Part shown: positions 19,004 through 19,316 of the stretch, piece by piece
How positions within the stretch are numbered: the first letter of the stretch is position 1
How the letters are laid out: the number at the start of each line of letters is the position of its first letter
DNA from: a virus
Taxonomy: Duplodnaviria; Caudoviricetes
Virus record (IMG/VR): IMGVR_UViG_3300029224_000008
Location: 1-59,830 of that record
Reading direction: 5' to 3' (one strand)
Length of the DNA stretch: 59,830 bases
Position numbers and translations under genes: made by a program
The notes under the pieces: model-generated
The model's database searches: none
Told to the model about the DNA's origin: nothing
What the model saw: the letters and a program-made list of their open reading frames with translations, nothing else

Positions 19004-19072
19004 TCTTGAGTTCAGCTTTCTGCTCAAGACGGTGGTACAATCACCGGCGTCTACCAGTTCCGCCACTCAGCC
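19004..19072 (-). ncRNA. tRNA-like element C (5' acceptor strand, D arm and two hairpins; no T arm)
   Basis: GGCTGAG-TGGCGGAACTGGTAGACGC-CGGTG ATTGTAC CACCG-TCTTGAG..CTCAAGA. Confidence 0.5.
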
Positions 19073-19082
19073 AACTATCAAC

Positions 19083-19217
19083 GACAGAGACAGGGATCGA
19101 ACCTGCAATCCCAAGTTCAGTGTGCCAGCCCGTGCATCTGATGCGCCAGTTTACTGCTCGGGCCGGTGGGGTGTGTACATTACCCTAACCTGCGTTTACC
19201 AATTCCGCCACTCTGTC
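19083..19217 (-). ncRNA. tRNA-like element B, 135 nt, with an ~85-nt structured segment between the D and T arms
   Basis: Perfect 7-bp acceptor GACAGAG/CTCTGTC, D arm GCGGAATTGGTAAACGC, T arm GCAGG TTCGATC CCTGT. Confidence 0.75.
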
Positions 19218-19226
19218 TACACTGAA

Positions 19227-19316
19227 GAGTTAGAGGAGAGAATCGAACTCTCAGGCCCCCAAAAGGACTACTCCACCACAGGAGCCCGGAACACCACCAT
19301 CCGGTCTTCTCTACTC
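19227..19316 (-). ncRNA. tRNA-like element A (atypical cloverleaf with long variable arm)
   Basis: TAGAG/CTCTA acceptor, CCGGA/TCCGG arm with TGGT in the loop, GCTCC/GGAGT arm with a 6-nt loop, T arm GAGAG TTCGATT CTCTC. Confidence 0.6.

What the first reader, a model, noticed from the sequence alone, without database searches (positions are those of the whole stretch)
19004..19316. Cluster of three non-canonical tRNA-like RNAs inside the replication module
Seen: between SSB and the Dda helicase, on the minus strand, lie three tRNA-shaped elements 9-10 nt apart, spaced like a tRNA operon. A (19316-19227) has a perfect T arm but a 6-nt anticodon-like loop and a 5-bp D-like stem. B (19217-19083) has canonical acceptor, D and T arms around an oversized middle. 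C (19072-19004) has the 5' half only. None encodes CCA and none forms a normal cloverleaf. Known: phage tRNAs can counter host anticodon nucleases (PrrC, PARIS/AriB, VapC), and tRNA mimics exist (YrlA Y RNAs, tmRNA TLD). No Ro/TROVE gene or tmRNA tag ORF is visible here. Inference: these may be tRNA-mimic RNAs acting as decoys, as RNase P/Z processing signals for the replication transcript, or as scaffolds. This is the best candidate for an undescribed system in the window.
Basis: partly seen in the sequence, partly recalled or inferred. Interest (0 to 1): 0.82.

Follow-up and report, generated by a model that had tools for sequence, protein, structure and literature searches.

The report
Non-decoding tRNA look-alikes in a phage
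A marine phage carries three tRNA-shaped stretches in a row that cannot read codons; the best-formed one belongs to a large, barely described family of phage RNAs whose only named member is a stable RNA of phage T5 with no known job.

Summary
On the minus strand, in the 455-nt gap between a Pam3-gp34-like gene (not shown to be an SSB) and the Dda-like helicase, lie A (19316-19227), B (19217-19083) and C (19072-19004), 9 and 10 nt apart. ARAGORN at default settings and Rfam at gathering scores call none of them. B has a perfect 7-bp acceptor stem, a leucine-type D arm and a T arm around an 85-nt middle with no usable anticodon loop. A covariance model built from 83 such elements of other phages (B left out) finds B at 58.1 bits (E 4e-13). 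It also finds phage T5 RNA1, annotated 'tRNA-like stable RNA with unknown functions', at 49 bits; a true T4 tRNA-Leu reaches only 30. B is therefore a new member of this family, which this scan has met before on other DNA. C is a copy of the B type that lacks the T arm and 3' acceptor strand. A is a separate 90-nt cloverleaf with a 6-nt anticodon-like loop, with no relatives found. None of 158 related helicase loci has the cluster, so covariation for this copy cannot be tested. Function is unknown: most likely host-processed, non-decoding tRNA mimics; decaying relics are the main rival.

The parts
19227..19316 (-). Element A: a 90-nt class-II-like cloverleaf. It has an 8-bp acceptor helix with one bulged A, a 5-bp D-like stem with a 9-nt loop, a 5-bp stem with the 6-nt loop UGUGGU, an extra hairpin, and a perfect T arm (GAGAG UUCGAUU CUCUC). 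No CCA follows.
   Evidence: Sequence. MFE fold -33.3 kcal/mol, z -1.10. Rfam: only tRNA-Sec at 17.5 bits against a gathering score of 47, E 1.1. ARAGORN calls it only at a lowered threshold. No hit to family model R1. 0 matches in viral contigs for an A-derived pattern.
19083..19217 (-). Element B: a 135-nt tRNA-shaped RNA without an anticodon, with a leucine-type frame (T5 RNA1 type).
   Evidence: R1: 58.1 bits, E 3.9e-13, full-length match. ARAGORN calls it only when introns are allowed, as a 'tRNA' with a 62-nt insert whose remaining loop CACACUG has no U33.
19211..19217 (-). B, 5' strand of the acceptor stem (GACAGAG).
   Evidence: Pairs 7/7 with 19083-19089.
19192..19208 (-). B, D arm of leucine-tRNA type (GCGGAAUUGGUAAACGC, with the GG of the D loop).
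19107..19191 (-). B, 85-nt middle ('cargo') in place of the anticodon and variable arms. It holds a 4-bp hairpin with the 9-nt loop AAUGUACAC and a long imperfect hairpin.
   Evidence: Folded alone: -24.6 kcal/mol, z -0.13, 89 of 200 shuffles fold as well. No similarity to the middles of 83 other family members.
19083..19106 (-). B, T arm (GCAGG UUCGAUC CCUGU) and the 3' strand of the acceptor stem (CUCUGUC). The next base, at the discriminator position, is G.
19004..19072 (-). Element C: a 3'-truncated copy of the B type. It has the 5' acceptor strand, a Leu-type D arm, a 5-bp stem with the 7-nt loop AUUGUAC, and a 26-nt hairpin. It has no T arm and no 3' acceptor strand.
   Evidence: R1: 26.2 bits from the D arm alone, with the T arm deleted in the alignment. 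Its two hairpins fold at z -3.35, 0 of 200 shuffles as good. Its similarity to B shows in the alignment.
18977..19003 (-). Leader of the helicase gene, with the AGGAG ribosome-binding site 7 nt before the ATG. It occupies the place where C's T arm would be.
   Evidence: Sequence. The helicase start is fixed by 20 aligned homologues that share M1 and W3.
19317..19431 (-). Untranslated stretch between the upstream gene's stop and A, with two hairpins and no run of U after them.
17717..18976 (-). Dda-like helicase gene, downstream neighbour on the same strand.
   Evidence: PHROG 325, E 4.3e-102.
19432..20304 (-). Upstream neighbour on the same strand: a Pam3 gp34-like protein, not shown to be an SSB.
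   Evidence: Pfam PF23977 at 60.6 bits. PHROG 2402, unknown function. No PDB relative.

Best explanation
The gap holds a small cluster of tRNA-derived genes that no longer decode. B is an intact member of the phage family of leucine-frame tRNA-shaped RNAs without an anticodon (T5 RNA1 type). It keeps the acceptor-T helix and the D/T-loop elbow of a tRNA and carries an unrelated 85-nt middle. A is a second, unrelated tRNA-shaped RNA with a 6-nt loop where the anticodon loop should be. C is a copy of the B type that lost its 3' third.

Inferred mechanism: the three are transcribed together with the flanking replication genes, which lie on the same strand with no terminator between them. Host RNase P and 3' processing cut out A and B at their tRNA-like ends, and the host enzyme adds CCA. 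The products persist as stable RNAs that occupy tRNA-binding host factors without entering decoding. The remaining 3' piece, C plus the leader, becomes the 5' end of the helicase mRNA.

Shown here: the shapes, B's family membership, and the inability to decode. Inferred: transcription, processing, stability and any decoy effect.
For: B matches a model built without it from 83 elements of other phages at 58.1 bits, E 3.9e-13. The same model finds T5 RNA1, annotated as a tRNA-like stable RNA, at 49 bits. It gives a true T4 tRNA-Leu only 29.9 bits.

The family is real and large. Of 121 matches, 106 have 7/7 acceptor pairing before any filtering. All 7 acceptor pairs show changes on both sides across members.

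The family does not decode. ARAGORN of 84 without introns. With introns allowed it of 84, with anticodons scattered over 17 isotypes, only 12 of them Leu.

B keeps every frame pair: 7/7 acceptor, 3/3 D and 5/5 T.

The cluster is non-coding on both strands. There are no Pfam hits for the opposite-strand ORFs, and the helicase start is fixed by its homologues.

All elements lie on the gene strand, with no promoter or terminator signal above chance.

The phage has no CCA-adding enzyme, RtcB, RNA ligase or Ro of its own, so any maturation must be done by the host.
Against: There is no expression data; no RNA run holder was listed.

No homologue of this cluster was found. None of 158 related helicase loci has an R1 hit, and the two closest relatives have a plain gap of about 165 nt. 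Selection on this copy therefore cannot be tested.

B's middle folds no better than shuffles, z -0.13.

B has G at the discriminator position, where 71 of 83 family members have A.

The truncated C shows that this locus tolerates decay.

A has no relatives, and by shape alone it is not rare.

No function is known for any family member, T5 RNA1 included.

No conserved neighbouring gene gives a lead; the largest ORF cluster occurs in 4 of 83 loci.
Confidence: 0.5

Rival explanations
1. Decaying relics. A tandem array of tRNA or tRNA-like genes was picked up once in this phage lineage and is eroding, with no present function. B's frame looks intact only because the event is recent.
For: The cluster is absent from 158 related loci, and the two closest relatives have a plain gap. 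C is truncated. A has a 6-nt loop and a bulged acceptor. B's middle has no excess stability. Some relatives carry an ordinary tRNA-Arg upstream of the helicase, so tRNA genes do come and go near this gene.
Against: B keeps 15 of 15 frame pairs and scores higher on the family model than T5 RNA1 does. The composition of the cluster matches its flanks, which argues against a very recent import. The family as a whole is maintained by compensatory change.
Confidence: 0.3
2. Processing punctuation or leader. The tRNA-like folds matter only as RNase P/Z cut sites that separate the upstream mRNA from the helicase mRNA. C's hairpins serve as a protective 5' leader, and the excised RNAs have no role.
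For: The elements lie on the same strand between two genes, with no terminator or promoter signal above chance. C abuts the ribosome-binding site and its hairpins are unusually stable, z -3.35.
Against: The closest relatives express the same gene pair without such elements. One tRNA-like fold would be enough for a cut. In other phages family members sit in tRNA clusters and in arrays among small ORFs, not at one fixed gene junction.
Confidence: 0.13
3. B is a real decoding tRNA interrupted by a 62-nt intron that is spliced out.
For: With introns allowed, ARAGORN calls B as tRNA-Val(CAC) at its default threshold.
Against: The loop left after removal is CACACUG, without U33 and with U at position 37. 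By my own reading, no other choice of the 62 removed bases restores U33. Rfam finds no intron or ribozyme family there at E up to 10. The same ARAGORN mode assigns scattered anticodons across the family. From general knowledge, bacterial tRNA introns are group I introns of about 200 nt or more, and bacteria lack the protein splicing endonuclease. The phage has no RNA ligase or RtcB.
Confidence: 0.03
4. Chance resemblance, or structured DNA such as a replication origin, rather than RNA genes.
For: The folding energies are not exceptional. The site lies in the replication module.
Against: B's E-value is 3.9e-13 against an independent model. The Leu-type D arm occurs twice and the T-loop consensus twice within 310 nt. 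No direct repeats of iteron type were seen when reading the sequence. My repeat search failed on a format error and I did not repeat it.
Confidence: 0.02

Closest known systems
Phage T5 RNA1 (NC_005859 30501-30644, misc_RNA 'tRNA-like stable RNA with unknown functions')
   Same: Both have an acceptor helix, a Leu-type D arm, a T arm and a long middle in place of the anticodon arm. Both are found by the same model: T5 RNA1 at 49 bits, B at 58.1 bits.
   Different: The middles are unrelated. T5 RNA1 lies in a cluster of 20-odd tRNA genes, whereas this phage has no ordinary tRNA gene. The stability of the T5 RNA is taken from the record's annotation; nothing is known about expression of B.
Phage T5 RNA2 (NC_005859 32959-33083)
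   Same: Architecture only, compared with A: an 8-bp acceptor helix, a 5-bp D-like stem with a G-rich loop of 8-9 nt, and a T arm.
   Different: RNA2 is 125 nt and A is 90 nt. No sequence or model test of kinship was made, so this is a resemblance, not membership.
Phage T4 species 1 RNA (rnaC)
   Same: It is a small stable RNA next to tRNA genes, and its 3' part forms a T arm plus acceptor helix. R1 matches that part at 20.4 bits.
   Different: It has no Leu-type D arm, and its score is below that of a true tRNA-Leu.
Bacterial class II tRNA-Leu
   Same: B and C share the D-arm sequence, and B shares the T arm.
   Different: There is no anticodon arm of normal form in B. C has no T arm. ARAGORN default and the Rfam tRNA model do not call either.
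tmRNA and YrlA Y RNAs (tRNA mimics)
   Same: They also use a tRNA elbow and acceptor-like helix without decoding in the usual way (general knowledge).
   Different: There is no Rfam or ARAGORN tmRNA hit and no TROVE/Ro gene. From recall, YrlA has its ends at the anticodon side with the T arm before the D arm, whereas B has normal tRNA order.

Membership tests
T5 RNA1-type leucine-frame tRNA-like RNA without anticodon (model R1, built here) | A 7-bp acceptor helix formed by the two ends of the element | tested here: met
   B: 7/7 pairs. A: not this frame. C: no 3' strand.
T5 RNA1-type leucine-frame tRNA-like RNA without anticodon (model R1, built here) | A Leu-type D arm with the D-loop GG, and a T arm with a UUCGA-type loop | tested here: met
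   B has both. C has the D arm only. A has the T arm only.
T5 RNA1-type leucine-frame tRNA-like RNA without anticodon (model R1, built here) | A middle of about 70-100 nt with no canonical 7-nt anticodon loop | tested here: met
   B's middle is 85 nt. ARAGORN without introns makes no call; with introns the loop lacks U33.
T5 RNA1-type leucine-frame tRNA-like RNA without anticodon (model R1, built here) | A significant full-length score on a model built without the query, above that of true class II tRNAs | tested here: met
   B 58.1 bits, E 3.9e-13. T5 RNA1 49 bits. T4 tRNA-Leu 29.9 bits. C 26.2 bits (partial). A no hit.
T5 RNA1-type leucine-frame tRNA-like RNA without anticodon (model R1, built here) | A at the discriminator position (71 of 83 members) | tested here: not met
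   B has G, as do 6 of 83 members. This is a majority trait, not a defining one.
T5 RNA1-type leucine-frame tRNA-like RNA without anticodon (model R1, built here) | Made as a discrete stable RNA | not testable with these tools
   No RNA run holder was listed, and the contigs cannot show RNA ends.
Decoding tRNA | A cloverleaf with a 7-nt anticodon loop (U33, purine 37), called by ARAGORN or Rfam | tested here: not met
   0 ARAGORN genes and 0 Rfam matches at gathering scores. A has a 6-nt loop. B has none. C has such a loop (AUUGUAC) but no T arm or 3' acceptor strand.
Selenocysteine tRNA (for A) | An Rfam RF01852 score at or above the gathering score of 47 bits, and a UCA anticodon | tested here: not met
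   17.5 bits, E 1.1. The loop is UGUGGU.
Intron-containing tRNA (for B) | A recognisable intron class, and a canonical anticodon loop after removal | tested here: not met
   No Rfam intron or ribozyme hit at E up to 10. The residual loop is CACACUG.
tmRNA | A tRNA-like domain plus a tag reading frame, called by ARAGORN or Rfam | tested here: not met
   (mode -m at a lowered threshold): none.
YrlA / Y RNA with Ro | An Rfam Y-RNA-like hit and a TROVE-domain gene | tested here: not met
   No Rfam hit. PF05731 is absent from the complete phage record.

The most novel reading that the evidence does not exclude
Phages widely use the upper half of a leucine tRNA as a carrier frame for interchangeable RNA modules. 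This phage has recruited a three-unit set into its replication operon. After host processing, A and B act as tRNA mimics that tie up a host tRNA-binding factor or a tRNA-targeting defence nuclease. The C remnant has been turned into a structured leader that sets helicase expression.
Probability: 0.12. Interest if true: 0.8.

Novelty: new member of a known kind. Interest (0 to 1): 0.5.

Why it matters
Standard tRNA finders and Rfam miss B and its relatives, so these genes go unannotated. Members also occur in bacterial genome assemblies. The only named member I could tie to the family, T5 RNA1, carries the annotation 'unknown functions'.

This window adds three things:
- a GC-rich, divergent member in a phage of about 60 kb that has no ordinary tRNA genes;
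- a location inside a replication operon rather than a tRNA cluster;
- a truncated copy beside it that shows how such genes decay.

It does not reveal the function. If the family proves to be a decoy or carrier system, it would be a new layer of phage-host RNA biology, and it would be easy to test in T5.

Tried and rejected
- **Homologues of the cluster.** blastn of the gap against cultured phages found no match. blastn and nhmmer against 79 IMG/VR and 80 metagenome loci around related helicases found nothing beyond the D arm. A first related-loci search with the single helicase protein gave nothing.
- **Pattern scans.** An A-derived pattern gave 0 viral matches. A pattern with B's own T-loop variant gave 0 viral matches and 2 in genomes, both shells with unrelated middles.
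- **Sequencing runs.** No RNA holder was listed. The contigs of a second sample cover both flanks identically but none covers 19026-19312, which proves nothing. A 'no RNA holder' result says nothing about expression.
- **Antisense role.** The longest complementarity of A, B or C to the rest of the genome is 10-12 nt, within the range of shuffles.
- **Shared motif in family middles.** None: 74 clusters among 84 middles, and no k-mer above the null.
- **Conserved neighbour gene.** None.
- **Cultured relatives of the family.** blastn of one shell found no match. A shell-rich locus matched only ordinary tRNA genes.
- **Other tRNA-like sites in the window.** The T-loop motif at 46840 has no stems. 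The frame at 34024-34118 (+) is antisense to a large ORF and has no D arm.
- **Permuted tRNA.** I considered reading B's 3' part plus C as a circularly permuted tRNA. I rejected it in favour of a truncated tandem duplication, because bacteria have no known pathway for permuted tRNAs (general knowledge).
- **Literature.** Five full-text searches and passages of three papers found no description of this family. The papers were PMC10690425, PMC11662646 and PMC4810235. Supplementary tables of PMC10690425, which lists 10,006 candidate viral RNAs, could not be seen and may include it.

Full report
**What is there.** The window is a complete 59,830-bp virus record with direct terminal repeats, and it was recovered from seawater metagenomes. 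Its Dda-like helicase is about 50% identical to those of Rhizobium phage RHph_I65 and the Pseudomonas YuA-like siphophages. On the minus strand, the stop of a 290-aa gene (19432) and the helicase ATG (18976) are 455 nt apart.

The helicase start is fixed by 20 homologues that share M1 and W3, so the longer GTG-started frame over C is not coding. The opposite-strand ORFs have no Pfam match. The upstream gene is Pam3 gp34-like (Pfam) and PHROG 2402 of unknown function. It is not shown to be an SSB.

**Standard detectors.** ARAGORN at default settings finds no tRNA or tmRNA in the whole window. Rfam at gathering scores finds nothing. With E up to 10 on 18900-19500, the only match is A to tRNA-Sec, at 17.5 bits against a gathering score of 47.

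**The three elements.**
- *A* folds into a five-arm cloverleaf. It has an 8-bp acceptor helix with one bulged A, a 5-bp D-like stem with a 9-nt loop, a 5-bp stem with the 6-nt loop UGUGGU, an extra hairpin and a perfect T arm.
- *B* has a 7/7 acceptor stem, a leucine-type D arm and a T arm, with 85 nt between them. ARAGORN calls it only if introns are allowed, as a tRNA with a 62-nt insert. The loop left over, CACACUG, has no U33.
- *C* shares B's 5' part: 22 of the first 26 bases by my count. It also shares a UGUAC loop motif and a GAGCAG..CUG hairpin motif. It ends before any T arm, and the helicase ribosome-binding site sits where the T arm would be. C's two hairpins are very stable (z -3.35). 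B's middle is not (z -0.13).

**Relatives of the phage lack the cluster.** Around related helicases I fetched 79 IMG/VR loci and 80 metagenome loci. The two closest (72% and 64% identity) have gaps of about 162 and 172 nt, with hairpins but no tRNA-like element. blastn and nhmmer find nothing like A, B or C in any of these loci. Of the 38 loci given to ARAGORN, two have an ordinary tRNA-Arg(TCT) upstream of the helicase, one of them directly before it. tRNA genes therefore do come and go near this gene.

**B belongs to a large family.** I scanned IMG/VR for a Leu-type D arm followed 70-100 nt later by a T-loop consensus. That spacing is too long for a normal tRNA-Leu. Among 121 matches in the loci then held (B included), the 7 bases before the D arm pair with the 7 bases after the T stem at 7/7 in 106, at 6/7 in 3 and at 5 or fewer in 12. 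This count was made before any filtering.

The 84 unique elements are 117-147 nt long. ARAGORN of 84 without introns. With introns allowed it of 84, with anticodons spread over 17 isotypes, 12 of them Leu. These calls are fits of convenience, not spliced tRNAs. Rfam's tRNA model reaches 35.8-40.7 bits on five of the long elements only by skipping 42-69 nt.

The middles fall into 74 unrelated clusters and share no k-mer above the null. In 7 groups with related middles, predicted pairs are 110 invariant, 6 changed on one side, 7 compensatory and 3 broken. That is modest support, because the structure was predicted from the same alignments. Across the 83 elements other than B, all 7 acceptor pairs show changes on both sides: 233 such cells against 50.5 in shuffles. 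These rows had been filtered for at least 6/7 pairing, and the pattern itself fixed the D arm and the T loop.

Some phages carry 5-7 such frames with the same acceptor sequence, interleaved with small ORFs. No neighbouring ORF recurs: the largest cluster occurs in 4 of 83 loci.

**Membership test.** A covariance model of the frame (R1), built from the 83 elements without B, was run over the whole window with filters off.

| Target | R1 score |
|---|---|
| B | 58.1 bits, E 3.9e-13 |
| T5 RNA1 | 49 bits, E 4.4e-10 |
| T4 tRNA-Leu | 29.9 bits |
| C (D arm alone) | 26.2 bits |
| 3' part of T4 rnaC | 20.4 bits |
| T4 tRNA-Ser | 18.8 bits |
| A | no hit |

T5 RNA1 is annotated in NC_005859 as a 'tRNA-like stable RNA with unknown functions'. 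R1 has 0 hits at E 0.01 or below in 158 helicase-relative loci. B differs from most members in having G rather than A after the acceptor stem; A occurs in 71 of 83 members and G in 6. It also differs in its UUCGAUC T loop. A scan for that variant found 0 viral and 2 bacterial-genome elements, both with perfect acceptor stems and unrelated middles.

Notes of this scan on other genomes had already described this 'leucine-tRNA shell without anticodon' family and pointed to T5 RNA1 and RNA2. I tested the T5 RNA1 link myself. A resembles T5 RNA2 only in architecture, an 8-bp acceptor and a 5-bp D-like stem.

**How it most likely works.**
- *Shown:* the shapes, the family membership of B, and the loss of decoding in all three.
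- *Inferred:* the elements lie on the gene strand with no promoter or terminator signal above chance, so they are probably co-transcribed with the replication genes. B keeps the acceptor-T helix and the elbow nucleotides that RNase P, 3' processing and the CCA-adding enzyme use (general knowledge of tRNA maturation). The phage has no CCA-adding enzyme, RtcB, RNA ligase or Ro of its own.

I therefore expect host-made, stable, non-decoding tRNA mimics (confidence 0.5). The C remnant would be left as the helicase mRNA leader. What the mimics bind is unknown. No antisense target exists in the phage's own genome.

**Rivals.**
- Decaying relics (0.3). This is favoured by the cluster's absence from relatives, the truncated C, the odd A and the unremarkable fold of B's middle.
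- Mere processing punctuation or leader (0.13).
- A spliced tRNA (0.03).
- Chance or DNA structure (0.02).

**Verdict.** The trio is heterogeneous: one intact family member, one truncated copy and one orphan. For this copy, expression and selection could not be tested.

Noticed in passing
It has no PDB relative by sequence, so an SSB role is not shown.
   Followed up: partly
window 17448-17720 (-): A 90-aa HNH endonuclease ORF (PHROG 3593, E 3.6e-12) lies directly downstream of the helicase gene.
   Followed up: no
window 19026-19312: In a second seawater sample of the same study, contigs match both flanks exactly, but none covers the tRNA-like cluster. The only pieces there are about 20-nt D-arm matches from a 9.9-kb contig of another organism. 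This may be an assembly break at repeated D-arm words or a strain difference; it cannot be told which.
   Followed up: no
window 34024-34118 (+): A 'T arm plus 7/7 acceptor' frame lies antisense to a 942-aa ORF. It has no D arm, and its occurrence is within the chance rate of the loose screen (0.16 per shuffled window).
   Followed up: yes
L313 8263-12206; L387 1210-4517; L364 5923-8330: Some uncultured phages carry 5-7 long tRNA-like frames with the same acceptor sequence (AGTCAGG) but different middles. They are spaced 300-1000 nt apart and interleaved with small same-strand ORFs, next to clusters of up to 16 ordinary tRNA genes.
   Followed up: partly
L283 397-512 (+): One family-like element has its extra 42 nt inside the D loop and keeps a normal-looking anticodon arm. 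The insert position is therefore not fixed across the family.
   Followed up: no
L316 3276-3403 (-): This match reads like a tRNA-Leu(UAA) with a normal anticodon stem and a palindromic hairpin of about 44 nt inserted in the anticodon loop. It is a different case from the anticodon-less frames.
   Followed up: no
L393 7250-7372 (-); L394 4096-4205 (-): Elements of the same frame type, with perfect 7-bp acceptor stems and unrelated middles, occur on contigs of a Mycobacterium MAG and of Desertivirga xinjiangensis. I did not check whether they lie in prophages.
   Followed up: no
L012 2264-2341; L004 1418-1494: Two phages with related helicases carry an ordinary tRNA-Arg(TCT) upstream of the helicase gene. 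In L012 it lies directly before it, in the position the cluster has here.
   Followed up: no
L392 1411-1501 (-) (phage T4 rnaC): The 3' part of T4 species 1 RNA forms a T arm plus acceptor helix and scores 20.4 bits on the family model. It lacks the Leu-type D arm.
   Followed up: partly
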